IMG/VR virus record: IMGVR_UViG_3300049011_000013
Span: 1-58,592 of that record
Source: a virus
Taxonomy: Duplodnaviria > Caudoviricetes
Direction: 5' to 3' (one strand)
Length of the DNA stretch: 58,592 nt
Shown: positions 5,442 to 30,169 of the stretch, in pieces
How the letters are laid out: every line of letters starts with the position of its first letter
How positions within the stretch are numbered: position 1 is the stretch's first letter
Made by a program: the position numbers and the translations under genes
Notes under the pieces: model-generated
Told to the model about the DNA's origin: nothing
Databases searched by the model: none
Seen by the model: only the letters and a program-made list of their open reading frames with translations

Positions 5442-6303
5442 CGCCACCCTCCTGTAGCCAGCGCTTAGCCGCCGCCGCCGTGGCTTGGCCAGCCTTGCCG
5501 AGCACCCCGCCCCCGGCTCGATCAGGAATCGTCCAATCGCTTTCAAAGTGATTCCCTGGCCCGAAGAAGGTTGCCGGCTGCTTGATGAATTTCGATTCCG
5601 TCCCGTTGTGCGCCACGTACGCGGCGTAGCGGGTGACGCCATCGAGGATTAGCAGCGGGTCGATTCCGTCCTTGATGCGGGCATTCCAAGCCTTCAGGGA
5701 ATCGGCCTTGCTGGAACCGGGGCGCTTTGGGTACGCAGCCCACGCATCCGCGAAGATCAAATCGGAATCCGACAATTTATTCTGTTCCTGCTCTTGCTCC
5801 TGTTTCTGTTCTTGTTTCTGTTCTTGTTTCTGTTTCTGGCTTCGTAGGGGCTTAGAAGCCCCTTGCAAGGGGCTTGCCAATTCATCCTCATCTGGCAGGT
5901 GAAAAACGGAGCCGTAACGCTCAACGAACCCATACCAGCATTGGTTGCGTGGTATTTTTGATAGTTCGTTCCAGACCCCGGCGCAGCGCTTGTCCTTGCG
6001 CTCCATTTCCTCACCGATCTGGTAAGCGGCGAACTCGTGGACGAATATGTAGTCGCTCTCCTCCTCGTAGGTGCAAAAATCCGCTTCGATGGCGCTCGCA
6101 AGCCCCTTGGAAGCCCCTTCCAAGCTCAGCCCGGTATCTATGGCTATGTACGCGACAGGGCAGTGATACACCCCGATCATGTTGGCATGCGGGCTTGTCA
6201 TCAGGTACATGGCGACGATGGTTGCCTCCTGACCGGCCGCCTTGAGGGCTTTGCCGGTCTTCCCCGTCCAAAACTGCGGGGCCACTTTCGCGTAGTCACG
6301 CAT
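5431..6303 (-). CDS. phage replication initiator (O-like)
   Basis: MRDYAKVAPQFW N-terminus, HTH region, QKQE low-complexity linker, C-terminal F...W..YP...K...KAW...ATF domain. Confidence 0.75.
   Translation of the reverse strand: MRDYAKVAPQFWTGKTGKALKAAGQEATIVAMYLMTSPHANMIGVYHCPVAYIAIDTGLSLEGASKGLASAIEADFCTYEEESDYIFVHEFAAYQIGEEMERKDKRCAGVWNELSKIPRNQCWYGFVERYGSVFHLPDEDELASPLQGASKPLRSQKQKQEQKQEQKQEQEQEQNKLSDSDLIFADAWAAYPKRPGSSKADSLKAWNARIKDGIDPLLILDGVTRYAAYVAHNGTESKFIKQPATFFGPGNHFESDWTIPDRAGGGVLGKAGQATAAAAKRWLQEGGDAT
5781..6125. repeat. putative replication origin: AAGCCCC(T) iteron-like repeats plus a 12-bp tandem array
   Basis: GGGGCTTAGAAGCCCCTTGCAAGGGGCTT at 5847-5875; AAGCCCCTTGGAAGCCCCTT at 6100-6119; TTGTTTCTGTTC-type repeats at about 5781-5838, all inside the O-like gene as in lambdoid origins. 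Confidence 0.55.
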
Positions 6304-6730
6304 TCGACCCCTCCACCTGATTAACCCGCATCCCCACAAACAGCGCCGACGCCCAGCCCTGCGGCCTCTTGGCGGCTTTATTCGCCCGGTCCCGCGCCCT
6401 TACCCTTGCCAGGTATAGCGCGTGCCGTACCGGGTCTTTCTTGATGCGCTCACGGAAGCCGCGATTTTCCTCGACGCGGGTTAGTGGGATTGGTCGTGGC
6501 TTGCTCTCGCCAGTGCCCCACAGGTACACAGCGGCCAGCGTATGGGCGTTGCGGCGCCAGTCGATAATGTGGACGCGGCCTTGGTCAAGCAGGTAGCGCG
6601 TGTACTGGTTGCCCGATACGCGGTTCATGTAGATTGCATCGGAAATCTCGTTGGCGGTCATGCCACGGTCGGCAATGGCCGCTTTGATGGCCTCGATGCG
6701 GCGCTTGGTACGGATGTCGGATTCGTTCAT
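6296..6730 (-). CDS. winged-HTH hypothetical protein
   Basis: MTANEISDAIYMNRVSGNQYTRYL HTH-like segment. Confidence 0.55.
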   Translation of the reverse strand: MNESDIRTKRRIEAIKAAIADRGMTANEISDAIYMNRVSGNQYTRYLLDQGRVHIIDWRRNAHTLAAVYLWGTGESKPRPIPLTRVEENRGFRERIKKDPVRHALYLARVRARDRANKAAKRPQGWASALFVGMRVNQVEGSNA

Positions 6731-6945
6731 TGCGCCTCCAATGTGTATTGGGCGACGCGAGATTTTCCGTGGACGCCGGCGACCTCGATCATGGTTGTGA
6801 TGATATTCATGCCGCTGTGGCGAAGCTCGTCCACGCGCGCGGCCAGACGGTTACACCCGAACCGGCTAAGGGCTTCCAGTGGCGTCAGCGGTGCGCCAGT
6901 GCGCAGATAGTCGGCTACTTGCTGGCATTGGGTTTTCGTTGTCAT
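6727..6945 (-). CDS. small HTH protein
   Basis: LTPLEAL..FGC.RLAARV.ELR..G..I.T motif typical of phage HTH proteins. Confidence 0.7.
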   Translation of the reverse strand: MTTKTQCQQVADYLRTGAPLTPLEALSRFGCNRLAARVDELRHSGMNIITTMIEVAGVHGKSRVAQYTLEAQ

Positions 6946-7304
6946 GGAGCCTCCAAAAACATATCAACCGTTAATTCATCCTTAATCGGGATGGCGTGGC
7001 CCGCCTCAACAAACGAGTGACAACGCGGCTGCCCATCAGCGCCGTACTGCCAATCATCTGGATAGTTCGGGTCGTTGACGCTGAATGCGAAGGTTCGCGC
7101 GATGATGTCGCAGACTTGGTTGTCGTCACACTCTTCGAGCGGCAGGCCTTTCATCATTCCATGGTCGCGCTCGCACTGGCCGCACCAACTCTCGATGAAT
7201 AGTTCGCCCTCGGTTCCGTTTCCCGGACGGTATTTAGCCCCGGCGCGCTCGATGTTCATTGCGGCCAAAGAATCCGGGTAGATGCGAATAGTGACCGCGC
7301 TCAT
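6942..7304 (-). CDS. Cys-rich hypothetical protein
   Basis: YRPGNGTEG..F...WC..C motif; coupled ORF. Confidence 0.65.
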   Translation of the reverse strand: MSAVTIRIYPDSLAAMNIERAGAKYRPGNGTEGELFIESWCGQCERDHGMMKGLPLEECDDNQVCDIIARTFAFSVNDPNYPDDWQYGADGQPRCHSFVEAGHAIPIKDELTVDMFLEAP

Positions 7305-8005
7305 GGAGCCTCCGAGAATGCGTCGAGTTGGATTTGCTTTGGGATGTCTGGCGCGAATAGCGCTACTTGGCTGTACGCCTCAGCGATGCGCTCACAGGCC
7401 GCCGCGAAGTAGTGGCCATCCAGTTCGCATCCAACAAACTCGCAGCCGTATTCATTCGCGGCGATGGCGCTTGAGCCGCTACCGAGGTGTGTGTCGAGGA
7501 TGCGTTGGCCCGGCTTAGCGTAGGTCGCCAGCAGGCATTGGTAGAGTTTCACCGGCTTTTGCGTTGGGTGGATTCGCGAGTCCTGCAGCGGCGACATAGA
7601 GAATTTCTTTGCAGTCGTGCCGAATGATGTCCAGGCAAGTTCAACGGCGGCAAAACTGACCTCATTCGAGAACAGCTTGTCCCACACGATCCAGCACGGC
7701 GAACGGCGCGGAAGCATATCGATGAAGTGATTTGCACCCCATACGATCTGGTTCACACTTACGCGGCGAACCTCGTCAAAGTAGGCCTGCTCGGGCGGTG
7801 ATGAGTCCCAATCTCCCATCTTGTACTCGGCGCGCTTATTGCCTTTGCGGCGACCCATGCCGGCCTTGTTGTCACCAATATTGATCCCATAAGGCGGGTC
7901 AACTATGGCTAGATCGAATGACTTATCTGCGCACGTCTTGAGGTAGTCCATGCAGTCACAGTTCAACATGGTAGCCCCCCCCACAATGATTCTGTTGTCG
8001 GTCAT
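7301..8005 (-). CDS. DNA amino-methyltransferase (N6-A/N4-C, beta class)
   Basis: DPPY, HPTQKP and LDTHLGSGS motifs. Confidence 0.9.
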   Translation of the reverse strand: MTDNRIIVGGATMLNCDCMDYLKTCADKSFDLAIVDPPYGINIGDNKAGMGRRKGNKRAEYKMGDWDSSPPEQAYFDEVRRVSVNQIVWGANHFIDMLPRRSPCWIVWDKLFSNEVSFAAVELAWTSFGTTAKKFSMSPLQDSRIHPTQKPVKLYQCLLATYAKPGQRILDTHLGSGSSAIAANEYGCEFVGCELDGHYFAAACERIAEAYSQVALFAPDIPKQIQLDAFSEAP

Positions 8006-18289: not shown

Positions 18290-18601
18290 CCCGCCGCGAG
18301 CAAGAAGCCCTGCCTAGCCTGCTGGGCATGGCCCTCGGAATCCTCGCCGCATTCGCCGTGATCGCCTGCCTCGGCGGCGCGCAGTACCAGGACCAGCGCG
18401 ACGACGAAAAGCTGCGCGACCAGATCGCCAAGAAGGTTGACAAGTACGCCGACCTTGACCGCCGTGGCCGCCAGATGACCGCGTACGACGAGATTAAGAA
18501 GTGAAGCTGATCAAAGCATATCGCAAGTGGCATGGCTGGGGATTTCGGCGCAAGGATGCGCTGTACCTGGCAATCAAGTATTTCAAACTATAGGAATGAC
18601 A

Positions 18602-19354
18602 ATGAGTGAAGTAATCGAAAACGGTCAACTGGTAGTTCGCCCGGAGACGCCGCTTACTGCGCCAAGCCAATCTGTCGGTCCCGCTGATCTGCTTCGCTAT
18701 GCGTTGGATAGCGGCGCGGATTTGGACCGCCTGGAAAAGCTTATGGAACTGCAAGAGCGCCATGAGGCCAACAAGGCACGCATGGCTTTCGTTGAGGCTA
18801 TGGCCGAGTTCAAAAAGACCGCGCCGACCATCTACAAGGAGAAGAATGTTTCGTTCTCCGGTACTAGCTATAACCATGCCACGCTCGGCGGCATCTGCGA
18901 GGCTGTGATTGGCCTGCTTGCGGCGAACGGCATCAGCCACGACTGGGACACGAAGCAGCCTGAGAGCGGCATGATCGTTGTCACCTGTACGCTTACCCAC
19001 AAGCTGGGCCACAGCAAGTCCACGTCCTTGGAAGCGCCACCGGACAACTCTGGAAAGAAGAACGGCATTCAGCAGATTTCCTCCGCGATTACTTACCTCC
19101 AGCGCTACAGCCTCTTGGGCGCCTGCGGCCTCGCGACCAGTGATATGCCGGACGATGACGGCGCTGGGCATGGCCAAGTGCGCGAAACTCCGCAAGCGCC
19201 ACCAGTCAAGGAGCCGCTCAACAGCAAGCGCTTCGATCAGGCGGTTGCCTCTATTGCTGCTGGTGACTACACCACAAAGGAAATGCGCGACTACTACGCC
19301 TTGACCACTGATCAACTGGTCGTCCTGGCTGATATGGACTCGAAGGCAAAATGA
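18602..19354 (+). CDS. erf: ERF-family single-strand annealing protein
   Basis: Q...SAITYLQRYSL..A.GLA....DDDG ERF motif. Confidence 0.85.
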   Translation: MSEVIENGQLVVRPETPLTAPSQSVGPADLLRYALDSGADLDRLEKLMELQERHEANKARMAFVEAMAEFKKTAPTIYKEKNVSFSGTSYNHATLGGICEAVIGLLAANGISHDWDTKQPESGMIVVTCTLTHKLGHSKSTSLEAPPDNSGKKNGIQQISSAITYLQRYSLLGACGLATSDMPDDDGAGHGQVRETPQAPPVKEPLNSKRFDQAVASIAAGDYTTKEMRDYYALTTDQLVVLADMDSKAK

Positions 19355-20082
19355 TTCGATTCCATCCATCCAGCGTCGGCCTTTTGATGAGCGACGCGCA
19401 ATCGGTCGATCTCGCCATTCTTCCGCCTGATCTACTTGAGATCGCGCGCAAGTCGCGCAAGTCTGCCGCCGACACTGATCGCCTTCTTCCGTACAAGGAG
19501 CTATCCCTGTCGGCCGGCGCGAAGTCCTATTTGATGGGTCTCGCAAAGGAGTTTGTGTTTGGCTATCACAAGGTGGTAACGACCAAGTTTATGGACAAGG
19601 GTTTGCTACTTGAAGATGAGGCAATCGCCTTTATCAACAAGATGCGATTCAAGAGCTACGCAAAGAACACCGAGCGGCGCGTCAGCCAATACTTGACTGG
19701 CGAGTGCGATATCTACGAACCAGGCGTCAAGACCATCGATACCAAGGTCGCATGGGACTTGTCAACGTTCCCGGCCCTGAGTTCTGAGGCGCACGATCCG
19801 CTCTATATGTGGCAAGGCGTCAGCTACATGAAGCTCTGGCCAGACGTTCATGAGCATGAAGTGGCTTTCATCATGCTCGACACGCCGGACGATCTGCGCA
19901 AGTGGGAGCAGCCAGAACTGCATGAAGTCAGCCACATCGACCCGGCGCTACGAATTACCAGCATCACTTACAAGCGCGACCCAACGTTAGAGCAAAAGCT
20001 TGACGCCAAGTGCGCCGTTGCTCACAACTACCTAATGGACCTGGTAGCCCAAATCAAACTAGAACATCGAGAGGCCGCATGA
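19351..20082 (+). CDS. phage exonuclease (lambda-exo/YqaJ-like)
   Basis: M.KG..LE.EAI, GECD, IDTK and Y.WQ..Y motifs; coupled to erf. Confidence 0.75.
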   Translation: MIRFHPSSVGLLMSDAQSVDLAILPPDLLEIARKSRKSAADTDRLLPYKELSLSAGAKSYLMGLAKEFVFGYHKVVTTKFMDKGLLLEDEAIAFINKMRFKSYAKNTERRVSQYLTGECDIYEPGVKTIDTKVAWDLSTFPALSSEAHDPLYMWQGVSYMKLWPDVHEHEVAFIMLDTPDDLRKWEQPELHEVSHIDPALRITSITYKRDPTLEQKLDAKCAVAHNYLMDLVAQIKLEHREAA

Positions 20083-21541: not shown

Positions 21542-21999
21542 CGCAAATCGTCCTCATGAAGGTATCCAACGTTCTGTCGCCCTACGACGAAGCGGCGGCG
21601 GCATTCATCCAGAAAATGAAGGTTGGCGAGTTGGCGCATTCGGACTTCCGCCGTGTTCGCAATTACAAGTTTCACAAGAAGTATTTCGCGCTGATCGGTT
21701 TCGCGTTTGATATGTGGGAGCCGAGCGGCGAATTAACGTACCAAGGCCAGCCGGTCCAGAAGACCAAGGAGCGTTTCCGTAAGGATGTCGCGATCTTGGC
21801 TGGCTTCTTCGAGACGACGATCAACATTCGCGGTGAGGTGCGGCTTGAGGCGAAAAGCATTTCGTTCGCACAGATGGATGAAATTGAGTTTGAGATTCTG
21901 TACAGCGCGACTATCGATGTGATCTTGTCGCGCATCCTGACGCGGTACTCGAAAGAGCAACTGGAAAACACGATCAACCAGCTTTTGGAATTTACATGA
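21538..21999 (+). CDS. DUF1367-family protein
   Basis: RNYKFHKKYFAL...F..W and KSISFAQMDE.EF..LY; TTG start overlapping the upstream stop. Confidence 0.8.
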   Translation: MTQIVLMKVSNVLSPYDEAAAAFIQKMKVGELAHSDFRRVRNYKFHKKYFALIGFAFDMWEPSGELTYQGQPVQKTKERFRKDVAILAGFFETTINIRGEVRLEAKSISFAQMDEIEFEILYSATIDVILSRILTRYSKEQLENTINQLLEFT

Positions 22000-22348
22000 C
22001 CACCGAATACGCCCCGCTCGATCCGGACAGCTACAAGCACGCGGCAGTGCTCCACAAAGCGCTTCATGCGGCCCATCCGGTGCTTTGGGACGGCAAGGTC
22101 GGCTACATCCAGGTAATCATCTCGCGCCTCGCTGGCGGCCGCGTTGAGACCGAGGCTTATCTGACTGGCAATCCGCAGTGCATCGATATCAAGGACATCG
22201 CACTCTATGAAAACGCTTGACATTTTCGCACCGCAGGAGCAACCTATCTATGTCGCTGAGAAAAAGGCGACCGGGATTGGTCTCCTGAGAAACCGCGTGG
22301 CACGAAGCCGCGCTAACAACGTGGCTTTTTCATTGCCTGCTGCCCTCA

Positions 22349-22428
22349 ATGGCGGCTTGGTGGGAGAGCTTCGGCTCGCCGGTTCGCTCATGCGGTTCCC
22401 GGTAGACCAATCCTGTCAAGCCGCCGCC
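22349..22428 (+). ncRNA. c4: C4 (P1/P7 c4, P4 CI-type) antisense RNA
   Basis: outer stem GGCGGCTTGGTGGGA / TCCTGTCAAGCCGCC, GAGC-TTCG-GCTC hairpin, CCGG stem, AGACCAATCC single strand; complementary targets upstream (22274-22283, 22291-22299) and downstream (22431-22440, 22463-22472); TTGACA at 22217. Confidence 0.8.
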
Positions 22429-22482
22429 CCGAATTGGTCTTCGTTGCGTCGGTTTCCAAACCGAACCGCATGGAGCCACATC

Positions 22483-22716
22483 ATGAAATTCCTCTTGCTT
22501 TTCCTCGCCTGCGGCGCTGCGCAAGCTGCCGACACGCACGTCCTGACTATCGAATTGCGCGATCCCGCTGCGAAGCCGCAGACGGTCAACTACCCGCCGA
22601 TGTCAAAGGTGAAGTGCGAGCGCGCCAAGGCGGATGACCTCAAGGCGTTGGCAATCGAGCCGCGTGGCTATCGTCTTGTCAGTGCGAAGTGCCTGCCTGC
22701 TGGGGGTGTGCAATGA
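22483..22716 (+). CDS. small secreted protein directly downstream of the C4 target
   Basis: GGAG RBS adjacent to the C4 target; signal peptide MKFLLLFLACGAAQA; two Cys in the mature part. Confidence 0.6.
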   Translation: MKFLLLFLACGAAQAADTHVLTIELRDPAAKPQTVNYPPMSKVKCERAKADDLKALAIEPRGYRLVSAKCLPAGGVQ

Positions 22717-23624
22717 CCGTCGCCACCCTCAACGTTATCCAGACCGCTGGCAGCAAGGTCTTCGATCTGTCGCTCGGCGCGCTTGCTGCGGACCTTCCTG
22801 CCGGCGAGTATCCGCTGTGCCTGGTGGACGCGGCGAACGCTGCCATTAACGATGCGCTGGCCGCCAAGCCATCCTCCATCCAACCAGTCGCCCACTTGAG
22901 CCTGCACGCTACCGCTGGCGCCCGTCACACCGCCCTGGGCATCAAGGCAGCAGCGAATGAACTGCCTGATGGCGAGTACGATCTGTACGCATCTCTCCCC
23001 ACCCAGCCAGTAGCAGAGGGCTGCGAGGAACTGGCAGCCGCTTCTGAGCGCGCAGTTGAGTACACCATGGCCGCCGTGCAGTGCTACGCGGAAGAATGGC
23101 GGAACAATCGCCACGAAGACGCCTGCAACACGCGAGACCGCATCCGCAACATGCTGCAAGCCGATGCAAAGTTGCTCGCTGACCGCGCCCAATTGGCCGA
23201 GCGCGTGGCGTACTACGAGGAGTTGCACGGCGCATTAGAGCGCATTCGACAGGTCGATCCGAAGTTCACGCCAGAGTGGGCAGCAAGCGTAATAGCTGGC
23301 AAGGCTCACACTCCCCAGCCGCACGCCGACGAAGTCGCGAAAGGTGGGGAGAGGGGTCGGTGTACGAGGCTGAAGAAAATCGCTGAGTGGCTGAAATCGA
23401 GCGCGCAAGATCAACAAGTCGGGCCTGACGAGTGGGCGCCTGCTAGTCAGTTCGATTATGAGCTTGGGCAGGCAGGCGCGGAAATCGACGAGATCGTATC
23501 AATCTGCACCAAAGAATGCCGTGGCGATTGCGCCCTATGCCGCAACTGGTACGAGCGCTCCAATAAAGCCGCAGCCAAGAATGTCGCCCCACCATCACCA
23601 GCAGAGGACGGTGGCAATGGCTAA
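22713..23624 (+). CDS. mosaic hypothetical protein (linker blocks A-D)
   Basis: ATGA-coupled; shares blocks A, B and C with 24877-26427 and block D with 26427-26642. Confidence 0.65.
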   Translation: MTVATLNVIQTAGSKVFDLSLGALAADLPAGEYPLCLVDAANAAINDALAAKPSSIQPVAHLSLHATAGARHTALGIKAAANELPDGEYDLYASLPTQPVAEGCEELAAASERAVEYTMAAVQCYAEEWRNNRHEDACNTRDRIRNMLQADAKLLADRAQLAERVAYYEELHGALERIRQVDPKFTPEWAASVIAGKAHTPQPHADEVAKGGERGRCTRLKKIAEWLKSSAQDQQVGPDEWAPASQFDYELGQAGAEIDEIVSICTKECRGDCALCRNWYERSNKAAAKNVAPPSPAEDGGNG

Positions 23625-24533
23625 AGTTATTCTCACCTGCGATGAAGTTAGATCAATTTTCGATTATGACGCTGTGGCGGGCGGGCTGCGCTATCGGGAT
23701 GGTCATGGAAGAGTAAAGAAGGGCAGTTTGGCAGGTTCAATTACCAGCCATGGGTACACAAAAATCGTGATTCTTGGCGGGGATCATTTAGCGCATCGTC
23801 TGATTTGGCTGCATGTATATGGGACTTATCCAAAAACTTCGCTTGACCACATAAATCATGTGAGGAATGACAATCGAATTGAGAATTTACGGGAAGCTGA
23901 CGCCTCGGAAAATATGCAAAATCGTCGGCTTAACGGGCCGTACTGGTCGGGTCATGTTGGGGTTATTTGGAGTAAGAAAAGTAGGAAATGGGTGGCCCGA
24001 ATTGCGGTTCGCATGAAGCAGATCCAGGTTGGTACGTTTGACGACATTAACGACGCGATTGCCGCTCGCAAAGAGGCTGTAAAGAAGTACCACCCATTTG
24101 CACCAAAGGAATCCCCATGACCGACCTGACCGCAATGCGCGCCACCTATGAGACGTGGGCCACCGAATGGCACGGGCGCGACTTCATCCTCAAGAACACA
24201 TCAGGCAGCTATTGCGTTGCCTCTGTCGAGCATGACTGGCGCGTGTGGCAAGCCGCCTGGAACGCAAAGCCAGCAGCCCAAGTATCGGAGGCGGTGGCTT
24301 GGATGCCGCAGTTCTTCAAAGGCGACCGTGTTGAAGTGGTTAACCCGCACGGGCACATCTACAAGGCGACGATTACAAAATCCGAAACGCGGTGGTGCGC
24401 AAAGCACAGGCCGTACATTTTCTACACGGTGCAGGCCGATGGCGAGACCGCGAAAAGCATCATTGTTGCCAGTGCCATCCACACCAAGCCTGTCGCAGCC
24501 CACCCCGCTACCGAGCAAGCCGATGTGCCGACA
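22868..24533 (+). repeat. copy 1 of seven conserved blocks (A-G)
   Basis: A 22868-23035, B 23183-23210, C 23309-23347, D 23590-23609, E 24115-24144, F 24246-24297, G 24495-24533. Confidence 0.9.
23617..24120 (+). CDS. HNH homing endonuclease with AP2-like domain
   Basis: AHRLIW...LDHINH.RNDNRIENLR; GV.W.K...KW.ARI; lower GC than neighbours. Confidence 0.9.
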   Translation: MAKVILTCDEVRSIFDYDAVAGGLRYRDGHGRVKKGSLAGSITSHGYTKIVILGGDHLAHRLIWLHVYGTYPKTSLDHINHVRNDNRIENLREADASENMQNRRLNGPYWSGHVGVIWSKKSRKWVARIAVRMKQIQVGTFDDINDAIAARKEAVKKYHPFAPKESP

Positions 24534-24659
24534 TGGCAGGAGCGTGTCAAAAGAGAGTTGCCAGAATTGGATTTCAAGTGGTTGCAGCCCGCATATCAGA
24601 TCAAGGAAATGCAGGCCGAAATCGCCGACCTTCGCGCCGCGCTGGCACAGAAAGGATAG
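24117..24659 (+). CDS. mosaic hypothetical protein (blocks E-G)
   Basis: MTDLTAMRA, WQAAWNA..AAQVSEAV and AAHPATEQADVPT shared with 26953-27438. Confidence 0.7.
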   Translation: MTDLTAMRATYETWATEWHGRDFILKNTSGSYCVASVEHDWRVWQAAWNAKPAAQVSEAVAWMPQFFKGDRVEVVNPHGHIYKATITKSETRWCAKHRPYIFYTVQADGETAKSIIVASAIHTKPVAAHPATEQADVPTWQERVKRELPELDFKWLQPAYQIKEMQAEIADLRAALAQKG

Positions 24660-24661
24660 CC

Positions 24662-24880
24662 ATGAACTACCCGATCCCAAGCAAGCACATGAAGGCGGCC
24701 ATGGACGCGCAAAGCAACCTCAACATCCTCGCAGCGATTGAGAAGATTCTTGAGGGTGGCACGTTCCACGGCGAGTGCGCAGCGCAGCGCAAGATCATCG
24801 CCATCTGCAAACAAGAACAGCAACGCCAGCTTGGCCTGATGGATCGGGCCGTCGCGGCGATTAATAAGGACACCCAATGA
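24662..24880 (+). CDS. hypothetical protein
   Basis: AAGGA RBS; ATGA overlap with the next gene. Confidence 0.55.
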   Translation: MNYPIPSKHMKAAMDAQSNLNILAAIEKILEGGTFHGECAAQRKIIAICKQEQQRQLGLMDRAVAAINKDTQ

Positions 24881-26427
24881 ACACCACCAATCCAGAATTG
24901 CCACCGCTGCCAATAGCAACAAGCACCCACACTATGCTTCACGGCTTCACCTCGCAGCAGATGCACGCCTACGCCCTCTCTGCCATCGCCCTCGCCAGCA
25001 AGGAAGCGCCCACCGAGTTCAGCGACCACGATAAGGGCATCATTGCTGATATCGAGGCCATGGCAAAGAGCCATCACACTGGCTGGTGGTCGCGCGCATT
25101 GGCATCAGCCGCGCTGCGAATCATTCGCCGTGAAGGGCCCGCCCCTGTACTGGCAGCAGAGGCGGCAAGTGTGGATACGGTGCAAGATGACGAAATCATC
25201 AAGCGCTTCGAGGCAGTAATTGCGCAAGATTTAGACGCCTATACTCGCGCTGGCGAAACCGTCTATCAGGTTACGCGCACTGAAATATTGGCGTACACCC
25301 GCGCCCACGTCAGCGCCCTCGCCAATAGCAAGACGGAAGCGGCGGTGGTGTCGGTTGGTATTTCGGATACGTGGATCGAGAACCAGCGCAATCAATCAAA
25401 TCTGACCAAATTCAATGAGCGCGAAGTTTTCCAGCATTTCGCACGTGCTGTAGAGCGCGAGACGTTGCGACGTACTGCGACCACCCCGGCCGCACCCATA
25501 GATGTGGCAGCGAGTGCGGAGAGCATCGACAACAACGAATTCAACGCACTGATCGAGAAAATGTGCGATGGATTCCATAATAGTATTCCTCCGTATCTCG
25601 CTGCACGCAAACAGGTGATCGAGCACATCAACGACCACGTTGCCGCTCAAGTAGGCGCGAAGCAGGCCGAGATTGACCGCCTAATGCTCGAATTCTGCCC
25701 CGACGAAATGGCGGAAGATCAGACCATCGAATGGGCCAATAACCAGCGCTGCGCCATCCCTGCTGCCGCCCCAGCTACGCCGAGCGATACGCTGATCCGT
25801 GATTTGGTCAAACTGTGGGACTCGCCAAGCGTTTCGGAGGACGACCACAACGAGGAAATGTGCCGCATTGAAGATGCGATGCGCAAGGCCGCCGCCCGGC
25901 CATCCTCCATCCAGCCAGTCGCCCACCTGAGCCTGCACGCTACCGCCGGCGCCCGCCACATCGCCCTGGGCATCAAGGCAGCGGCGAATGAACTGCCTGA
26001 TGGTGAGTATGACCTGTTCACCTCTCTCCCATCCCAGCCAGTAGCAGAGGGCTACGAGGAACTGGCGCTGCCTGAACCGCTCGAAATCGACTGGCCAGTG
26101 CTGCACAGCACCGCTCTCGGATGCGGCGTCGAGGATCGCGGCTTGCATGGCCGTTATGAATGCGCCGAATACGGCTTCCAGGAGGGCGTCGATCAGGCCG
26201 CATCACGGGTGCCGGACGACATCTACGACTCGGCAACCGTCCGCGAGATTCAGTGCGAAGCATTCGAGGCGGGCCGCGCCCAATTGGCCGAGCGCGTGGC
26301 GGTACTGGAAGCGGCGTTGGGGTTCTACGCCGATCCGAAGAGCAATTGCCCCGGCGCGCTTGCTCGCGAGGTACTCGCCGCCACTCCCCAGCCGCACGCC
26401 GACGAAGCCGCGAAAGGTGGTGTGTGA
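24877..26427 (+). CDS. large mosaic hypothetical protein (blocks A-C at the C-terminus)
   Basis: short helical modules separated by Ala/Pro linkers. Confidence 0.7.
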   Translation: MNTTNPELPPLPIATSTHTMLHGFTSQQMHAYALSAIALASKEAPTEFSDHDKGIIADIEAMAKSHHTGWWSRALASAALRIIRREGPAPVLAAEAASVDTVQDDEIIKRFEAVIAQDLDAYTRAGETVYQVTRTEILAYTRAHVSALANSKTEAAVVSVGISDTWIENQRNQSNLTKFNEREVFQHFARAVERETLRRTATTPAAPIDVAASAESIDNNEFNALIEKMCDGFHNSIPPYLAARKQVIEHINDHVAAQVGAKQAEIDRLMLEFCPDEMAEDQTIEWANNQRCAIPAAAPATPSDTLIRDLVKLWDSPSVSEDDHNEEMCRIEDAMRKAAARPSSIQPVAHLSLHATAGARHIALGIKAAANELPDGEYDLFTSLPSQPVAEGYEELALPEPLEIDWPVLHSTALGCGVEDRGLHGRYECAEYGFQEGVDQAASRVPDDIYDSATVREIQCEAFEAGRAQLAERVAVLEAALGFYADPKSNCPGALAREVLAATPQPHADEAAKGGV

Positions 26428-26642
26428 TGGCAAAGTTGACCAAGGCAGCTATCGCCATGCTTGAAACGGCTGGCTGCACGGAGGTGGCAGACGACTACCT
26501 CATCCTGTTCAATAGCGACGTGACCGTGCTGCTGTCGAGCAAAGCGGTGGGCGACCTTAACCGCCAGGCTGCGGACAGACCTGCTTCCCAGGATGTGGGC
26601 ACACTCCCCGCCTCACCATCACCAGCAGAGGACAAGACATGA
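26427..26642 (+). CDS. hypothetical protein ending in block D
   Basis: TGATG coupling; MAKLTKAAIAML...SPSPAEDKT. Confidence 0.55.
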   Translation: MAKLTKAAIAMLETAGCTEVADDYLILFNSDVTVLLSSKAVGDLNRQAADRPASQDVGTLPASPSPAEDKT

Positions 26643-26956
26643 GCGACCGCGAATTATTGGAACTGGCAGCGAAAGCGGCGGGATACTCCCCGGCAGTAGT
26701 CACCGATGACGGTGTTGTGTTCTTGCGTGGCGTGCGCGTGAAGTGGAGCCCGCTCACCGACGACGGCGACGCTCTGCGGTTGGCTGCGGCTTTGCGGCTG
26801 AGCATTCACCCAGGGAAGCACAAGGGTGATGGCTGCACCGTCGAAACGCAGCGCAGCGGAATCGCTGGTTGTACCGCCTTTTATGACGACAAGGCCAACC
26901 AGATGCGCCAAGCCATCGTCCGCGCCGCCGCTGAAATCGGAAGGGCGATGCCATGA
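26639..26956 (+). CDS. phage hypothetical protein, paralog of 1574-1903
   Basis: MSDRELLELAAKAAG...WSPLTDDGDALRLA...IVRAAAEIG. Confidence 0.75.
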   Translation: MSDRELLELAAKAAGYSPAVVTDDGVVFLRGVRVKWSPLTDDGDALRLAAALRLSIHPGKHKGDGCTVETQRSGIAGCTAFYDDKANQMRQAIVRAAAEIGRAMP

Positions 26957-27438
26957 CCGACCTGACCGCAATGCGCGCCAAATTCGAGGCGACGTACGGA
27001 CCGAAGAAAGAGTTCGCGTGGCGCAACCCAAGCGGCTCCTACAAAATGGCCGCGCTTGAGAGCGCGTGGGAAATCTGGCAAGCCGCCTGGAACGCCAGGC
27101 TAGCAGCCCAAGTATCGGAGGCGGTGGATTTGCACGCTGCGATTATGAATCTGCCGTGCGATCTTGAGAAATGCACCAGCAAGGATTGGGTTATGGCGTT
27201 CAAAGTTGGACACAAGGTTGCTCGCCACGCCGCCGCAGAACTTGCTGCAGCCCACCCCGCTACCGAGCAAGCCGATGTGCCGACAAGCGATGCGGGCCGC
27301 TTCCGGTTCGAGCATACGGAGCATGACGCAATGGCGCGCATTGAGTGCAAGGCATGGGGCGATCCAGCATCAGTGAACAACATTGATTGGTGGCGCGCTG
27401 AAATTGACGCAGCCATGAAGCCAAAGGAGGGGATGTGA
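26953..27438 (+). CDS. mosaic hypothetical protein (blocks E-G)
   Basis: paralog of 24117-24659 with different inserts. Confidence 0.7.
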   Translation: MTDLTAMRAKFEATYGPKKEFAWRNPSGSYKMAALESAWEIWQAAWNARLAAQVSEAVDLHAAIMNLPCDLEKCTSKDWVMAFKVGHKVARHAAAELAAAHPATEQADVPTSDAGRFRFEHTEHDAMARIECKAWGDPASVNNIDWWRAEIDAAMKPKEGM

Positions 27439-27614
27439 ATAGTCCAAAACCAAAATACGTGACCTTGCAGGAATGGGCTGCTACCATGTTCTCAAAGGTG
27501 CCGCACAATAACACCCTACTTCGCTGGGTGCATGATGGGCGCATCCAGCCGCAGCCGCGCAAGATTGGCAAGCACTGGCAAGTGCGGCCGAATGCGGAGT
27601 ACACATCGGACTAA
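27435..27614 (+). CDS. xis: excisionase (lambda Xis family), absent from the ORF track
   Basis: GTG start after AGGAGG; YVTLQEWAATMFSKVPHNNTLLRWVHDGRIQPQPRKIGKHW resembles lambda Xis; immediately upstream of int. Confidence 0.85.
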   Translation: MNSPKPKYVTLQEWAATMFSKVPHNNTLLRWVHDGRIQPQPRKIGKHWQVRPNAEYTSD

Positions 27615-27615
27615 T

Positions 27616-28703
27616 ATGGGCCGCCAGAGACTAGCAAAAAATCGAGGATTTCCGCCGAACCTGTATCAGAATGCGGCGGGATACTTCTACTATGTCAACC
27701 CGATATCCGGAAAGCAGCGCGGTTTGAAGAAGGATCGCGCCTTTGCGTTTGCGGAGGCGCGCGCGGCGAATGCGGTACTGGCCACGATGCGTCATACGCC
27801 GTTAGCTGATTGGGTGGCTGGCAAGGATTCCTTCACTATCAAGTCGTGGATTCCGGCTTATGAAAAACTGTGGTCCGAGAAGGCTAAGCGCGCCGCGTCC
27901 ACGCTGAGAATGTGCAAGTTTTACCTCAAGCGCATCGAGGAAAGCGACTTCGCCTGGATGCGCCTACGCGATGTCGAGACGGTTCACATAGCCGAACTGA
28001 TTAGGACCACCGAGAAGGATAGCGGGGCCGCCACGGCGTTGATGCTTCGCGCGCGACTCTCCGACCTGTTTCGCATGGCAGAGGCCGAGGGGCACGTTCC
28101 TAGCGGCTGCAACCCGGTGACGGCAACCTACGCGCCAAGCCGAACCGTGAAGCGCGAGCGCCTTTCGCTTGAACAGTTCTGGCTTGTACACGCTCAGGCG
28201 CCAACGTGGCTGCAACGCGCGATGATGCTCGCCCTCTTGACGGCACAGAGGCGGGATGATGTGGCGGGGATGAAGTTCGCGGACTTCAAAGATGGATACC
28301 TGCACATCGTGCAAGGCAAGGGACAGGGCGACATACGGATGCGCCAAGATGGAAGGATCGGACTAAAGGTAGTGGGCTTAACGATAGCAGACGCCATCGC
28401 AGCGTGCCGCGATTTGATCGTGAGCCGGTACATGGTGCATCACACGAAGCACGTATCGAAAGTAAAGCCAGGTGACAGGGTGACTAGCAACGGGCTCTCG
28501 AATGCCTTCCAGTACGCCAGGGAGGCGGCGGGCGGACGCCGCCCAGCTTCCACGAGATTAGGAGTCTTGCCGAGCGGCTATACCGCGAGCAGTACGGGGC
28601 TGAGTTCGCGCAGGCGATGCTTGGCCACAAAAACCCATCGATGACGGAAAAATACAACGATCTGCGCGGCGGCTGGCAAGACATACAAGCAAAGATTCTA
28701 TGA
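27616..28703 (+). pseudogene. int: lambda-family tyrosine integrase, frameshifted near 28531
   Basis: arm-binding N-terminus and LLTAQRRDD lie in one frame; catalytic FHEIRSL...LGHK...T.KY lies in the -1 frame at 28533-28703. Confidence 0.85.
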
Positions 28704-29220: not shown

Positions 29221-29368
29221 TATAGTGGCGAAAGTGTTTACCCGCGACCCATAAACAACATAGTGCCGATGGTTTGCGAAGTGTTCAATTATTCCTTGTG
29301 CAATATGGCGCAAAGATGCATACTAAAATCCAACTTTAATTTCATGCAGTGCAACTAATGAGGCAGCG

Positions 29369-30169
29369 ATGAAAATTGACGCTAAAGAGCTTGGCGCGAT
29401 CCTGGACCACACGAATCCACCTGATTACGTGCTGTGGAACCGCGAGCGGATTATTAGTTGCGTCGATTTTCTGCGGGCGAGTATTCCGCTTGCTGGCAAG
29501 CGCACGCTCGACCTCGGGCACGATGTGCATGTGGGTTCGCTGCTGGCAAATTTGGGCTGCATCCTACGTGGCAATGTCGCGCCGGATGAGTTAGGAGGGC
29601 ATGAGTCTGCGCGCGACTCAGCGTCGTTTTCGACACCATCAGGCGCAGTCAAGAATTGGCAGTTGGATGCATTCGACTTCGAGAAGGCGTTTCCCTACGA
29701 TGATGCGAGTTTCGATGTCGTGACCACGATGGAAGTGTTCGAGCACGTCCACGATAACCCGCGCGGCTTCCTCCGAGAAATTAAACGTGTGCTAGTGCCT
29801 GGCGGTCATGTGTTCATCGGCACGCCGAATGCTGCTTCATGGGCCAAGATCATGCGCCAGTTCGCGCATGCGCCCTCTTACGACTCTAAGCCGTTTTCGG
29901 AGAACTTCGGGCCGCGCCACCCGATGTGCCATGTCTACGAGTACACCCCATGGGAACTGAAGGACTTGCTCATGAGCGAGGGCTTCGAGATAACCTCGTT
30001 TGGCACATGGGACCCGTACGAATCAGACCCGCGAGGCATTCGCGCTGGCCTGTTGAAATTCCTGCTGGCAGGCGCTTTGGCTGCGCTTGGCTACCTCAAA
30101 TTCTCCGCGCTGATGTATCGCAATCGCGGCCATCAAATGGCCTTGGTCGCGCGCTTGAAGCCAGTCTAA
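29369..30169 (+). CDS. class I SAM-dependent methyltransferase (moron)
   Basis: FPYDDASFDVV...EVFEH...L.EI.RVL.PGG.VFI.TPN; opposite strand to the late operon; AT-rich upstream region. Confidence 0.8.
   Translation: MKIDAKELGAILDHTNPPDYVLWNRERIISCVDFLRASIPLAGKRTLDLGHDVHVGSLLANLGCILRGNVAPDELGGHESARDSASFSTPSGAVKNWQLDAFDFEKAFPYDDASFDVVTTMEVFEHVHDNPRGFLREIKRVLVPGGHVFIGTPNAASWAKIMRQFAHAPSYDSKPFSENFGPRHPMCHVYEYTPWELKDLLMSEGFEITSFGTWDPYESDPRGIRAGLLKFLLAGALAALGYLKFSALMYRNRGHQMALVARLKPV

What the first reader, a model, noticed from the sequence alone, without database searches (positions are those of the whole stretch)
22868..27285. Linker-delimited module array: seven conserved blocks in the same order twice, with unrelated inserts
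Seen in sequence: blocks A (168 bp), B (28), C (39), D (20), E (30), F (52) and G (39) occur in identical order at 22868-24533 and 25899-27285. B, D, E and G are identical, C has 1 mismatch, F has 3, and A is highly similar. The spacers are unrelated (A-B, B-C, C-D, D-E, F-G) or only weakly related (E-F). The intragenic spacers differ in length by 60, 18, 6 and 78 bp, all multiples of 3, so each block keeps its reading frame (RAQLAERVA, TPQPHADE.AKG, PSPAED, AAHPATEQADVPT). A simple decaying tandem duplication would diverge evenly rather than leave sharp identical islands around non-homologous inserts. Inference: the blocks act as recombination handles for in-frame swapping of 30-70 aa sub-gene modules and whole genes, possibly via the ERF/exonuclease pair upstream. 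That would be a combinatorial diversifier for early, possibly anti-defence, proteins.
Basis: partly seen in the sequence, partly recalled or inferred. Interest (0 to 1): 0.85.

Follow-up and report, generated by a model that had tools for sequence, protein, structure and literature searches.

The report
Shuffled phage gene modules with conserved joints
A soil phage carries two neighbouring versions of a small set of early genes in which short, almost identical joint sequences separate unrelated protein pieces, and related phages carry the same joints around different pieces, so this is a clear natural case of genes being rebuilt by recombination at short shared sequences.

Summary
Seven colinear blocks recur about 2.75-3.09 kb apart, far beyond chance. 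One detail was missed: the C-D spacing differs by 49 bp, because copy 2 has a stop right after C.

The locus lies in the early-left arm of a lambdoid-type temperate phage from a soil metagenome, between Erf/exonuclease/NinB genes and the integrase. It holds two tandem allelic-type versions of one accessory cassette. Blocks C, D and E are gene-end/ribosome-site/start joints. The tail of F and all of G are unstructured interdomain linkers. E and the start of F are the conserved helices of a folded N-terminal domain.

Relatives keep the blocks but carry different, reassorted inserts. Blocks are near-identical even at synonymous sites, unlike neighbouring shared modules. A homing-endonuclease gene bounded exactly by D and E is 99.5% identical in another phage whose flanks are about 91% identical.

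Best reading: population-level module exchange by short-homology recombination at conserved joints. Erf dependence, a dedicated diversifier and an anti-defence role are untested. This is a new variant of a known kind (PeSL cassettes, gp38 motifs). Protein function is unknown.

The parts
18599..19354 (+). Erf-family single-strand annealing protein
   Evidence: Pfam ERF, E 8e-16. phrog_155, E 1.7e-37.
19351..20082 (+). Exonuclease partner of Erf
   Evidence: phrog_5715 'exonuclease', E 5.7e-49. No Pfam hit.
21553..21999 (+). NinB/Orf recombination mediator (DUF1367)
   Evidence: Pfam DUF1367, E 2.2e-33. phrog_319, E 3.8e-47.
22713..23624 (+). Gene 1a (303 aa), a chain of modules carrying blocks A, B, C and D
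   Evidence: ORF. No family hit. Relative P0003 keeps the blocks with other inserts.
22860..23035 (+). Block A, copy 1: a roughly 35-aa 'LSL..AG..LP.GEY.L' module plus the linker SLPxQPVAEGxEEL
   Evidence: 159 of 176 nt identical to copy 2. 9 synonymous differences.
23183..23210 (+). Block B, copy 1 (RAQLAERVA)
   Evidence: 28 of 28 identical. Invariant in 4 of 4 aligned relatives.
23309..23347 (+). Block C, copy 1 (TPQPHADEvAKGG). Read through here into the next module.
   Evidence: 38 of 39. In copy 2 and in L004 the same block ends a gene and supplies AAAGGTGG before the next start.
23585..23609 (+). Block D, copy 1 (PPSPAED), the C-terminal tail of 1a. It contains GAGGA, 8 nt before the HNH start codon.
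   Evidence: 24 of 25. It is the left edge of the 559-nt piece that is 99.5% identical in the X4 contig.
23617..24120 (+). Free-standing HNH_3 + AP2 homing-type endonuclease, in the D-E slot
   Evidence: Pfam HNH_3, E 1.2e-13; AP2, E 0.0012 (below Pfam's cut-off). phrog_99, E 1.3e-54. PADLOC HEase. Absent from copy 2 and from L004.
24115..24144 (+). Block E, copy 1: stop/start overlap ATGA plus MTDLTAMRA
   Evidence: 30 of 30. 32 nt identical in L004. It is the right edge of the X4 near-identical piece.
24117..24659 (+). Gene 1c (180 aa): N-domain, linker, beta-rich middle module, linker, C-terminal helices
   Evidence: AlphaFold2 model. Relatives.
24246..24297 (+). Block F, copy 1 (WQAAWNAKPAAQVSEAV): end of helix 2 plus an unstructured linker
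   Evidence: 49 of 52. Residues 51-60 have pLDDT 55 and no secondary structure.
24495..24533 (+). Block G, copy 1 (AAHPATEQADVPT): an unstructured linker
   Evidence: 39 of 39. Residues 128-139 have no secondary structure.
24662..24880 (+). Gene 1d (72 aa), a variable slot gene between 1c and 2a
   Evidence: ORF. The X4 contig skips 24665-24870. No family hit.
24877..26427 (+). Gene 2a (516 aa): a P0055-like multi-module N-terminal part fused to blocks A, B and C
   Evidence: ORF. P0055 shares seven short blocks with the N-terminal part. BLASTP against 1a.
25891..26066 (+). Block A, copy 2. Its start is the likely joint of the tandem arrangement.
   Evidence: L004 and the X2/X3 contigs diverge from the window at about 25895-25918.
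26274..26301 (+). Block B, copy 2
26382..26420 (+). Block C, copy 2: the gene end, followed by TGATG (stop/start overlap)
26427..26642 (+). Gene 2b (71 aa), ending in block D
26609..26633 (+). Block D, copy 2
26639..26956 (+). Gene 2c (105 aa, phrog_5086), in the D-E slot of copy 2
   Evidence: phrog_5086, E 4e-26. A paralogue lies at 1574-1903 on the minus strand.
26951..26980 (+). Block E, copy 2
26953..27438 (+). Gene 2d (161 aa), the paralogue of 1c with a different middle and C-terminal module
27076..27127 (+). Block F, copy 2
27247..27285 (+). Block G, copy 2
27619..28703 (+). Lambda-type tyrosine integrase, apparently frameshifted near 28490-28540
   Evidence: Pfam Arm-DNA-bind_1, E 3.9e-09. 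The C-terminal catalytic motifs lie in another frame, 28488-28703.

Best explanation
The locus is a pair of tandem, allelic-type versions of one accessory gene cassette. It sits in the early-left operon of a lambdoid-type temperate phage, between the recombination genes (Erf, exonuclease, NinB) and the integrase.

The cassette genes are chains of small, mutually unrelated protein modules. The modules are joined by short conserved joints of three kinds:
- Gene-boundary joints that carry the C-terminal tail, the ribosome-binding site and the overlapping stop/start (C, D, E).
- Unstructured Pro/Ala/Gln/acidic interdomain linkers (the tail of A, the tail of F, and G).
- The two conserved helices of a folded N-terminal domain (E and the start of F).

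Related phages in soil and rhizosphere carry the same joints around different modules. Homologous recombination needing only about 25-50 nt of identity swaps modules and whole genes in frame at these joints. This is inferred to use the phage's own Erf/exonuclease/NinB system. For the D-E slot it is inferred to be triggered by breaks made by the HNH homing endonuclease.

The tandem pair most likely arose from one unequal, short-homology recombination between two such phages, near the start of A2. That event joined a P0055-like gene of one phage to the A-B-C part of the other. This would explain why the two copies look like alleles from different lineages rather than a decaying duplication.

Shown: the blocks, their positions in genes and in the model, reassortment in relatives, excess synonymous-site identity in the joints, and the recent transfer of D-HNH-E.

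Inferred: the enzymes involved, the origin of the tandem pair, and any function of the proteins. I take them to be dispensable early proteins that bind host or rival targets through their variable modules.
For: 1. Blocks are real and sharp-edged.

2. Relatives keep the blocks around other inserts.
- P0003 has the 1a N-terminus, the tail of A, then B, C and D, with different inserts.
- Five JGI metagenome proteins and the two window copies keep MTDLTAMRA, AAWNAxxAAQVSEAV and PATEQxxVPT around variable segments.
- L004 carries B, C, D, E and F at 92-100% nt identity (1 of 28, 0 of 39, 2 of 25, 0 of 30 and 1 of 49 mismatches). Its 19.6 kb otherwise shares only three modules with the window (284, 216 and 158 nt at 90-95%) and one 193-nt match at 76%.

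3. Modules are reassorted.
- N-domain interior: {1c, P0006} 77%, {L4_464, P0008} 97%, {P0010, P0012} 92%.
- Middle module: {P0006, P0012} 80%, {P0010, P0011} 76%.
- C-terminal module: {1c, P0007} 84%, {2d, P0011} 84%.
- All other pairs are 8-54%. The groupings cross one another.

4. Middle modules are not detectably homologous: 15 of 15 hhalign pairs have probability of 5.8% or less.

5. Synonymous sites.
- Copy 1 against copy 2: 63 of 64 same-residue codons are identical in blocks B-G (25.7 expected from codon usage), against 43 of 52 in block A. Fisher p = 0.005.
- L004 against the window: 52 of 53 in B-F, against 45 of 65 in the shared A-B module, p = 2e-5.
- Within one ungapped 284-nt alignment: 19 of 19 against 45 of 65, p = 0.004.

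6. In a 51.8-kb contig from another study (X4), window 23585-24143 (D + HNH + E) differs at 3 of 559 nt. The homologous flanks differ at 46 of 501, p = 1.5e-12.

7. In the AlphaFold2 model of 1c, residues 1-50 have pLDDT above 90. The F tail (51-60) and G (128-139) have no secondary structure.

8. Erf, exonuclease and NinB are encoded upstream. In the passages read, De Paepe 2014 (PMC3945230) shows that the phage D3 Erf/Exo pair recombines diverged sequences as well as lambda Red does, and that roughly 100-bp intragenic exchanges are frequent.

9. The exact-match unitigs of the probable source run have similar depth in the flanks (15.1 and 12.1), in cassette 1 (17.1) and in cassette 2 (15.8 and 17.3).
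Against: - DNA-level comparison rests on one IMG/VR locus and on tables of Logan contigs from three other runs. The contigs themselves could not be read.
- Short blocks are partly defined by their identity, so the synonymous-site tests are biased. Only the test within the 284-nt alignment escapes this, and it rests on 19 codons.
- No recombinant or deletion joint was seen in the source run. All 15 joints listed show zero depth in X1, 12 more joints were not shown, and contigs drop rare variants.
- E, the start of F, the TWQER motif and the C-terminal EIADLRAALA motif are also conserved in distant relatives. Protein-level selection therefore explains part of the pattern.
- Weak similarity in B-C, and a possible C..E..W/F..D pattern in the A-B inserts, leave room for very old homology of some inserts.
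- Erf and HNH involvement is inferred only.
- The function of every cassette protein is unknown.
Confidence: 0.6

Rival explanations
1. This is an ordinary in-situ tandem duplication followed by divergence. The blocks are simply the most constrained peptide motifs, and the inserts are fast-evolving but homologous.
For: - The blocks are colinear and in frame.
- E-F is clearly homologous and B-C is weakly similar.
- Several motifs are conserved in distant relatives.
Against: - Divergence is not uniform. Block A has 9 synonymous differences in 52 codons, the short blocks 1 in 64.
- The D-E slot holds unrelated genes, HNH against phrog_5086.
- Middle and C-terminal modules differ in length and show no profile similarity.
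- Each copy's modules have closer relatives in other phages than in the sister copy. For example the 1c C-terminus is 84% identical to P0007 but 16% to 2d.
Confidence: 0.08
2. The modules were exchanged by random illegitimate recombination, and selection kept only in-frame products at domain or gene boundaries (the Hendrix-type model). The blocks are conserved only because the peptides or translation signals are functional, not because they guide recombination.
For: - C, D and E carry ribosome-binding sites and overlapping stop/start codons.
- E and F belong to a folded, widely conserved domain.
- Module order can differ. In P0004, block A precedes the SALANSKTEAA block, whereas in 2a it follows it.
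- The linkers resemble one another: CCAGC/CAGCC occurs in 4 of 7 blocks. Microhomology joins are therefore plausible.
Against: - Peptide selection does not predict near-complete identity at synonymous sites in the joints when neighbouring shared modules in the same gene pair have 20 synonymous changes in 65 codons.
- The breakpoints of the 99.5%-identical HNH segment fall inside D and E, the only homology available there.
Confidence: 0.17
3. The tandem arrangement is an assembly chimera. Two co-occurring strains each carry one cassette, and the metagenome assembler stitched them head to tail through the shared blocks.
For: - The window is a metagenome-derived virus record, with 81% estimated completeness.
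- The probable source run holds related variants: of 36 contigs laid, 22 are 99% or more alike and 14 are less alike. Its unitigs break at the blocks.
- The two relatives seen (L004 and the X4 contig) have single cassettes.
Against: - Exact unitigs have about equal depth in the shared flanks and in each cassette: 15.1 and 12.1 against 17.1, 15.8 and 17.3. Two strains would roughly double the depth of the flanks.
- One exact unitig (24515-24999) joins the end of 1c through 1d to the start of 2a. Another (25492-26165) joins the 2a N-terminal part to A2.
- The order 1c-like gene followed by a 2a-N-terminus-like gene recurs in the independent X4 contig.
Confidence: 0.07
4. The pattern is mainly the footprint of the HNH homing endonuclease. 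Repeated homing and co-conversion around the D-E slot, possibly also between the two cassettes, homogenised the nearby blocks. Endonuclease-induced breaks produced the tandem amplification, as described for SegB.
For: - D-HNH-E is 99.5% identical in another phage, against about 91% for the flanks.
- The blocks nearest the HNH gene (D and E) are the most alike.
- Chihara 2026 (PMC13096335; abstract and sections 7 and 12 read) shows that a free-standing homing endonuclease drives tandem segmental amplification through microhomology.
Against: - Blocks B, C and G, which lie 0.3-0.4 kb from the HNH gene and are separated from it by non-homologous DNA, are equally identical. Conversion tracts cannot cross non-homology.
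- L004 lacks the HNH gene yet has the same blocks.
- Reassortment of the N, middle and C modules occurs in proteins from contigs where no HNH gene is known.
- The two cassettes are not identical repeats like those of a recent amplification.
Confidence: 0.08

Closest known systems
PeSL cassettes of T4-type phages (Arbiol et al. 2010, PMC2839356; passages read)
   Same: - Short conserved sequences flank variable ORFan genes in hyperplastic early regions.
- They are proposed, and shown by mini-circles, to act as 'linker sequences' for homologous recombination that inserts, deletes or replaces the flanked gene without disturbing its neighbours.
- They end in a Shine-Dalgarno sequence and a start codon, like blocks C, D and E here.
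   Different: - PeSLs are intergenic promoter plus stem-loop elements of about 100 bp.
- These blocks are 25-52 nt and coding. Four of the seven lie wholly inside ORFs.
- They keep the reading frame, so parts of proteins are exchanged as well as genes.
- No promoter-like or terminator-like site coincides with a block. Promoter-like sites: 3 found against 1.8 +/- 1.6 expected. Terminator-like sites: 7 against 5.6 +/- 2.5.
gp38 adhesins of T-even phages: hypervariable segments between conserved glycine-rich motifs (Trojet et al. 2011, PMC3157838, passages read; Tetart et al. 1998 seen only in that paper's reference list)
   Same: - Conserved short motifs alternate with hypervariable segments inside one protein.
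- Crosses gave chimeras in which the variable segments were swapped.
   Different: - There the conserved motifs are thought to form the structural core of one domain and the variable segments are loops.
- Here the variable parts are whole modules of 40-120 aa or whole genes, and at least two joints are modelled as unstructured linkers.
- The proteins here are early and non-structural, and their function is unknown.
Relaxed homologous recombination by Rad52-like phage recombinases (De Paepe et al. 2014, PMC3945230; passages read)
   Same: - A temperate phage with an Erf/exonuclease pair.
- Mosaics form at short or diverged homologies.
- The paper notes frequent exchange of roughly 100-bp segments inside genes.
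   Different: - That work measured exchanges between lambda and defective prophages over regions of hundreds of bp.
- No enzyme activity was tested here.
- The homologies here are shorter (25-52 nt) and recur as an ordered series.
Free-standing homing endonucleases and SegB-driven segmental amplification (Chihara et al. 2026, PMC13096335, abstract and sections 7 and 12 read; T4 mobE paper PMC2790892, search listing only)
   Same: - A free-standing HNH gene lies between two genes.
- It is present in some related genomes and absent from others.
- The gene and its immediate flanks are far more alike between genomes than the surroundings.
- A tandem repeat of the surrounding segment exists.
   Different: - Cleavage was not tested here.
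- The tandem units are old or foreign alleles (identical only in the blocks), not recent identical repeats.
- The slot is occupied by other genes rather than being empty in HNH-free versions.
Polyvalent proteins of phages and conjugative elements (Iyer et al. 2017, PMC5512222; search listing and start of abstract only)
   Same: - Early-acting mobile-element proteins made of many independent domains in variable combinations.
- Some domains also occur as stand-alone genes. Here, window ORF 2079-2435 (minus strand) is fused inside the 464-aa L004 protein.
   Different: - No domain of the cassette proteins matches any named family.
- The proteins are much smaller (150-630 aa).
- Conserved nucleotide joints are not a described feature of polyvalent proteins, as far as I recall.

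Membership tests
Simple tandem duplication with decay | Divergence between the two copies is roughly uniform along the unit | tested here: not met
   Block A has 9 synonymous differences in 52 same-residue codons. Blocks B-G have 1 in 64 (Fisher p = 0.005). Elsewhere there is no detectable similarity.
Simple tandem duplication with decay | Each part of a copy is most closely related to the same part of its sister copy | tested here: not met
   The 1c C-terminal module is 84% identical to P0007 but 16% to 2d. The 2d C-terminal module is 84% identical to P0011. The 1c N-domain is 77% identical to P0006 but 37% to 2d.
Free-standing HNH homing endonuclease | HNH nuclease domain with a DNA-binding domain | tested here: met
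   Pfam HNH_3, E 1.2e-13, above the cut-off. AP2, E 0.0012, below the cut-off. phrog_99, E 1.3e-54.
Free-standing HNH homing endonuclease | Lies between genes (not in an intron or intein), and is present in some related genomes and absent from others | tested here: met
   It lies between 1a and 1c with overlapping stop/start codons. It is absent from copy 2 and from L004. It is present in the X4 and X3 contigs.
Free-standing HNH homing endonuclease | The gene and its immediate flanks are much more alike between genomes than the surrounding DNA (recent homing or co-conversion) | tested here: met
   3 of 559 nt differ across D-HNH-E, against 46 of 501 in the homologous flanks of the same X4 contig (p = 1.5e-12).
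Free-standing HNH homing endonuclease | Cleaves the endonuclease-free allele near the insertion site | not testable with these tools
   This needs a cleavage assay.
PeSL-type linker cassettes | Intergenic element with an early promoter and a stem-loop | tested here: not met
   Four of the seven blocks (A, B, F, G) lie wholly inside ORFs, and C lies inside 1a in copy 1. None of the 3 promoter-like or 7 terminator-like sites in 22600-27650 falls in a block, and the counts are at shuffle level.
PeSL-type linker cassettes | Conserved sequences flank variable genes, and homology breakpoints between related phages fall in them | tested here: met
   joints at 24143/24249, 24297-24306/24502, 26316/26380, 26431/26608 and 23585.
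gp38-like architecture of conserved motifs and hypervariable segments | Conserved short motifs alternate with hypervariable segments within one protein family | tested here: met
   Alignments A1 and A2.
gp38-like architecture of conserved motifs and hypervariable segments | The conserved motifs together form the structural core of a single domain | tested here: not met
   In the 1c model, the F tail and G are coil segments between separate units. The model's overall confidence is modest (mean pLDDT 70).
Erf/Rad52-like recombination module | An Erf-family annealing protein with an adjacent exonuclease | tested here: met
   Pfam ERF, E 8e-16. phrog_155 and phrog_5715 in adjacent, overlapping genes.
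Erf/Rad52-like recombination module | It catalyses the exchanges seen at the blocks | not testable with these tools
   This needs crosses with erf mutants.
Known anti-defence or defence proteins | Match to a described defence or anti-defence family | tested here: not met
   Ten proteins were searched against PADLOC, namely the eight cassette proteins and two upstream ORFs. The only hit was the HNH gene, matching 'HEase'. There was no convincing Pfam, PHROG-function or NCBIfam match. No dedicated anti-defence library was available.

The most novel reading that the evidence does not exclude
The joints may be more than well-conserved peptides. They may be kept identical at the nucleotide level across a phage population because they serve as in-frame recombination handles. 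That would make them a coding counterpart of PeSL or integron-type cassette borders.

Together with the phage's Erf/exonuclease/NinB system and a homing endonuclease that supplies breaks, they would turn the early-left arm into a shared combinatorial library of small target-binding modules. These modules can be stand-alone genes or beads in one polypeptide. A tandem pair like this one would be a within-genome donor and acceptor that can expand, contract and generate chimeras during a single infection.
Probability: 0.2. Interest if true: 0.8.

Novelty: new variant of a known kind. Interest (0 to 1): 0.55.

Why it matters
How phage mosaics form is an old argument. One view is homologous recombination at conserved 'linker' sequences (Botstein's modular theory). 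The other is random illegitimate joins sieved by selection. Clear natural examples of linkers are few.

This locus offers an unusually clean one, for four reasons:
- It has an ordered series of 25-52-nt joints that keep the reading frame.
- The joints are more conserved at silent sites than the modules they join.
- They coincide with homology breakpoints in phages from independent samples.
- They bracket a recently moved homing-endonuclease gene.

The locus also shows that small early genes and domains of larger early proteins are interchangeable units. It defines an uncharacterised, highly modular protein family in Pseudomonadota phages whose variable parts are candidates for host or rival-phage interaction. 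The tandem pair, next to an Erf system, gives a direct experimental handle: deletions and chimeras between the copies are predicted.

Tried and rejected
**Searches that found little or nothing**
- BLASTN of 22600-27500 against 50,697 phage records gave only two hits of about 50 nt inside gene 2c.
- Exact blocks G and B gave 0 hits in IMG/VR. Parts of F and E hit only the contig already known as L004.
- The search for related loci with alignments A1 and A2 found nothing in metagenome contigs or genome contigs. In viral contigs, A1 gave 1 locus, while A2 and P0007 alone gave none.
- The host was not identified. A search of 1-8000 against phages gave only hits of 60-80% identity, to phages of many genera.

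**Function**
- Pfam, PHROGs, NCBIfam and PADLOC gave no convincing family for 1a, 1c, 1d, 2a, 2b or 2d, nor for 20 relatives. There were only weak hits: PUA_4 for 1c, and phrog_343 (unknown function) for the N-domain.
- Foldseek of the 1c model against the PDB gave no match at E of 0.001 or better. The best rows were Tudor/chromo-barrel domains at E 0.16-0.6, which is not evidence.
- ESM Atlas hits were all below 0.9.
- The 1a model was useless, with mean pLDDT 38.

**Other readings and checks**
- A DGR-type mechanism was not pursued. The variable parts differ in length and show no residual similarity, rather than differing at adenine-templated positions. No reverse transcriptase search was run.
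- No within-sample A-to-A deletion or chimera was seen. In one search, all 15 listed joints have zero depth in X1 and 12 more were not shown. Contigs cannot show rare variants, so this says nothing either way.
- A search for a k-mer shared among the blocks found only Pro/Gln/Ala-codon pentamers and no 7-mer present in 3 or more blocks.
- Supplementary files of papers were not consulted. The supplements of De Paepe 2014 and Chihara 2026 may hold homology-length data relevant to the 25-50-nt claim.

Full report
**Observation**

| Block | Copy 1 | Copy 2 | Identical nt |
|---|---|---|---|
| A | 22860-23035 | 25891-26066 | 159 of 176 |
| B | 23183-23210 | 26274-26301 | 28 of 28 |
| C | 23309-23347 | 26382-26420 | 38 of 39 |
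| D | 23585-23609 | 26609-26633 | 24 of 25 |
| E | 24115-24144 | 26951-26980 | 30 of 30 |
| F | 24246-24297 | 27076-27127 | 49 of 52 |
| G | 24495-24533 | 27247-27285 | 39 of 39 |

The self-BLAST of the whole window lists 10 repeat pairs, of which these are seven. Blocks G and B each occur exactly twice at up to 3 mismatches, and none of 100 shuffles gave any match. The offsets are 3031, 3091, 3073, 3024, 2836, 2830 and 2752.

In copy 2 a stop codon follows C, and D ends a separate 71-aa gene in another frame.

**Gene map**

The window is an IMG/VR virus record, linear, with an estimated completeness of 81%. The + strand from about 16.3 kb to 28.7 kb reads like a lambdoid early-left operon:

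- Erf (18599-19354), exonuclease (19351-20082), a coiled-coil protein, NinB/Orf (21553-21999) and two small ORFs.
- Cassette 1: 1a (303 aa; blocks A, B, C, D), an HNH_3/AP2 endonuclease, 1c (180 aa; blocks E, F, G) and 1d (72 aa).
- Cassette 2: 2a (516 aa; blocks A, B, C in its last third), 2b (71 aa; block D), 2c (105 aa; phrog_5086) and 2d (161 aa; blocks E, F, G).
- A lambda-type integrase.

No promoter-like or terminator-like site coincides with a block, and the counts are at shuffle level.

**What the blocks are**

Reading the flanks gives the following.

- C ends with AAAGGTGG. In copy 2 and in L004 it is followed by a stop that overlaps the next start. In copy 1 and in P0003 the frame simply runs on into the next module.
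- D encodes the last residues of a protein and holds GAGGA 6-8 nt before the start of the slot gene.
- E begins with the ATGA stop/start overlap.

C, D and E are therefore gene-boundary, translational-coupling joints.

An AlphaFold2 model of 1c was built from a 28-sequence alignment (mean pLDDT 70).

- Residues 1-50 form a confident N-terminal domain (pLDDT above 90), with helices at 4-19 and 35-49.
- The rest of F (residues 51-60) and G (128-139) have no secondary structure.
- They lie between this domain, a beta-rich middle module and the C-terminal helices.

E and the first part of F are thus the conserved ends of a folded domain, and E-F is homologous between the copies (36 of 60 residues). 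The F tail and G are linkers. The peptide joints are all Pro/Ala/Gln-rich and acidic: PTQPVAE, TPQPHADE, PPSPAED, KPAAQVSE and HPATEQAD.

**Relatives**

Homologues are rare.

- 1a found 4 proteins and 1c found 7, the window's own included.
- An HMM of the 1c family found 41 proteins at E of 0.001 or better among 1.84 billion representatives, and 8 at 1e-10 or better.

All close relatives keep the joints around different inserts.

- P0003 has the 1a N-terminus, the tail of A, then B, C and D with other inserts.
- P0006-P0011 keep MTDLTAMRA, AAWNAxxAAQVSEAV and PATEQxxVPT. Four of these five also keep EIADLRAALAKRGQx, and P0011 has the 2d-type end instead.
- P0055 shares seven short blocks with the N-terminal part of 2a.
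- The copy-2 A-B insert (PEPLEIDWP...GCGVEDRGLH.RYECAEYGWQ.GVD) recurs at different positions in eight proteins of 284-627 aa.
- P0052 and P0053 are near-identical apart from one replaced internal module.

Segment-wise identities show cross-cutting groupings.

| Segment | Groupings (% identity) |
|---|---|
| N-domain interior | {1c, P0006} 77; {L4_464, P0008} 97; {P0010, P0012} 92 |
| Middle module | {P0006, P0012} 80; {P0010, P0011} 76 |
| C-terminal module | {1c, P0007} 84; {2d, P0011} 84 |

All other pairs are 8-54%. This is reassortment. The six middle-module types gave hhalign probabilities of 5.8% or less in 15 of 15 pairs, though the profiles are thin.

**DNA evidence**

Only one IMG/VR contig (L004) holds relatives. 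Apart from the short block matches, its 19.6 kb shares with the window only three modules (284, 216 and 158 nt at 90-95%) and one 193-nt match at 76%. Yet it carries B, C, D, E and F with 1 of 28, 0 of 39, 2 of 25, 0 of 30 and 1 of 49 mismatches.

L004 has a single cassette:
- a 246-aa gene (the tail of A, the copy-2 type A-B module, B, a new long insert, and C);
- an 82-aa gene ending in D;
- a 96-aa slot gene;
- a 464-aa protein that starts with E-F and then strings together modules which in the window are parts of 2a or a stand-alone gene on the other arm (2079-2435, minus strand). That last module is still preceded by its own ribosome site and ATG.

Synonymous sites:
- Between the two window copies, 63 of 64 same-residue codons in B-G are identical. 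Codon usage alone predicts 25.7. In block A the figure is 43 of 52 (p = 0.005).
- Between L004 and the window, 52 of 53 are identical in the joints, against 45 of 65 in the shared A-B module (p = 2e-5).
- Within one ungapped 284-nt alignment, which avoids the bias of defining blocks by identity, the figures are 19 of 19 against 45 of 65 (p = 0.004).

**Other samples**

Twelve runs from twelve studies hold part of the region, all labelled soil or rhizosphere metagenomes. One holds 96% of the sampled words and is probably the source. I laid the contigs of four runs.

A 51.8-kb contig of run X4 encodes the P0003/P0007/P0055-type phage.
- It joins 22859 to 26020, that is, the 1a N-terminus to the tail of A.
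- It skips the E-F, F-G and 1d intervals.
- It matches window 23585-24143, exactly D + HNH + E, with 3 differences in 559 nt. Its homologous flanks differ at 46 of 501 (p = 1.5e-12).

A whole gene has therefore moved recently, with its ends in D and E.

X2 and X3 contigs reproduce the L004 arrangement. X2 also holds short exact pieces of the window phage at low depth.

**Is the tandem pair real?**

Exact unitigs of X1 have depth 15.1 and 12.1 in the flanks, 17.1 in cassette 1, and 15.8 and 17.3 in cassette 2. Unitigs bridge 1c-1d-2a and 2a-A2. That argues for one genome, but no single record spans the region. I leave 7% for a chimera.

**Origin of the pair (inferred)**

L004 and the X2/X3 contigs follow the window up to about 25895-25918 and then continue as ...AAAPQASQPEAAP, as P0055 does. 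The window instead continues into block A.

One unequal, short-homology recombination between two phages would give exactly this map. One phage would supply everything up to a P0055-like gene. The other would supply its own A-B-C gene, 2b, 2c, 2d and the integrase. This would also explain why the copies differ like alleles of different lineages.

**Mechanism (inferred)**

Erf-type annealing proteins with their exonucleases recombine short and diverged homologies efficiently. The D3 Erf/Exo pair did so in lambda, and exchanges of about 100 bp inside genes are common (De Paepe 2014, passages read).

Free-standing homing endonucleases mobilise themselves with flanking DNA and can drive tandem amplification through microhomology (Chihara 2026, abstract and sections 7 and 12).

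Conserved sequences acting as 'linker sequences' for gene shuffling are documented for the PeSLs of T4-type phages. Conserved motifs between hypervariable segments are documented for gp38.

The present case differs in that the joints are coding, in frame and very short, and in that they serve both sub-gene modules and whole genes.

**Limits**

- The function of the proteins is unknown.
- The DNA comparison rests on one locus plus contig tables.
- Part of the conservation is surely protein-level. E, the start of F, the TWQER motif and the C-terminal motif persist in distant relatives.
- No active recombination was observed.

**Verdict**

This is a new variant of a known kind. Interest 0.55.

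Noticed in passing
window 27463-28703 (+): The integrase reading frame changes near 28490-28540. The N-terminal and central parts are in the frame ending at 28644. The C-terminal catalytic stretch (...PSFHEIRSLAERLY...LGHK...MTEKY) is in the frame 28488-28703. This is either a real frameshift (a decaying prophage) or an assembly error. An exact unitig of the probable source run ends at 28531.
   Followed up: partly
window 1574-1903 (-) and 1572-1614 / 26916-26958: A 109-aa paralogue of slot gene 2c (phrog_5086 type) lies in the other early arm. Its 3' end and gene junction share a 43-nt stretch, 88% identical, with the end of 2c. The same kind of conserved gene-end joint therefore occurs outside the cassettes.
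   Followed up: partly
window 2079-2435 (-); L004 10613-10828: A stand-alone small gene of the window is 91% identical in DNA (216 nt) to an internal part of the 464-aa L004 fusion protein. There it is still preceded by AAGGAG and its own ATG. This looks like a gene fused by loss of the upstream stop.
   Followed up: partly
window 22207-22716 (+): A 169-aa ORF with an internal signal-peptide-like stretch (MKFLLLFLACGAAQA) is absent from the related X4 contig, which has 43 other letters in place of 22199-22728. This is a moron-like insertion just upstream of cassette 1.
   Followed up: no
window 26744-26786: Within gene 2c, several contigs of runs X1 and X3 break off into unrelated sequence at the same places (loose ends at 26744, 26750 and 26784-26786). 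This suggests another recombination joint inside that gene.
   Followed up: no
proteins P0014, P0027, P0031 (not in the window): A more distant branch of the 1c family shows the same architecture with its own joints (WQAATEAAKATGTAGE ... ARQPAPVVAVKTWQE ... EIADLRAALAARSQP). In P0031 a DnaJ-type zinc-finger-like module is inserted between them.
   Followed up: no
window 29327-30169 (+): Just beyond the integrase lies a 280-aa open frame whose sequence looks like a SAM-dependent methyltransferase. This is my reading of the translation; no family search was run.
   Followed up: no
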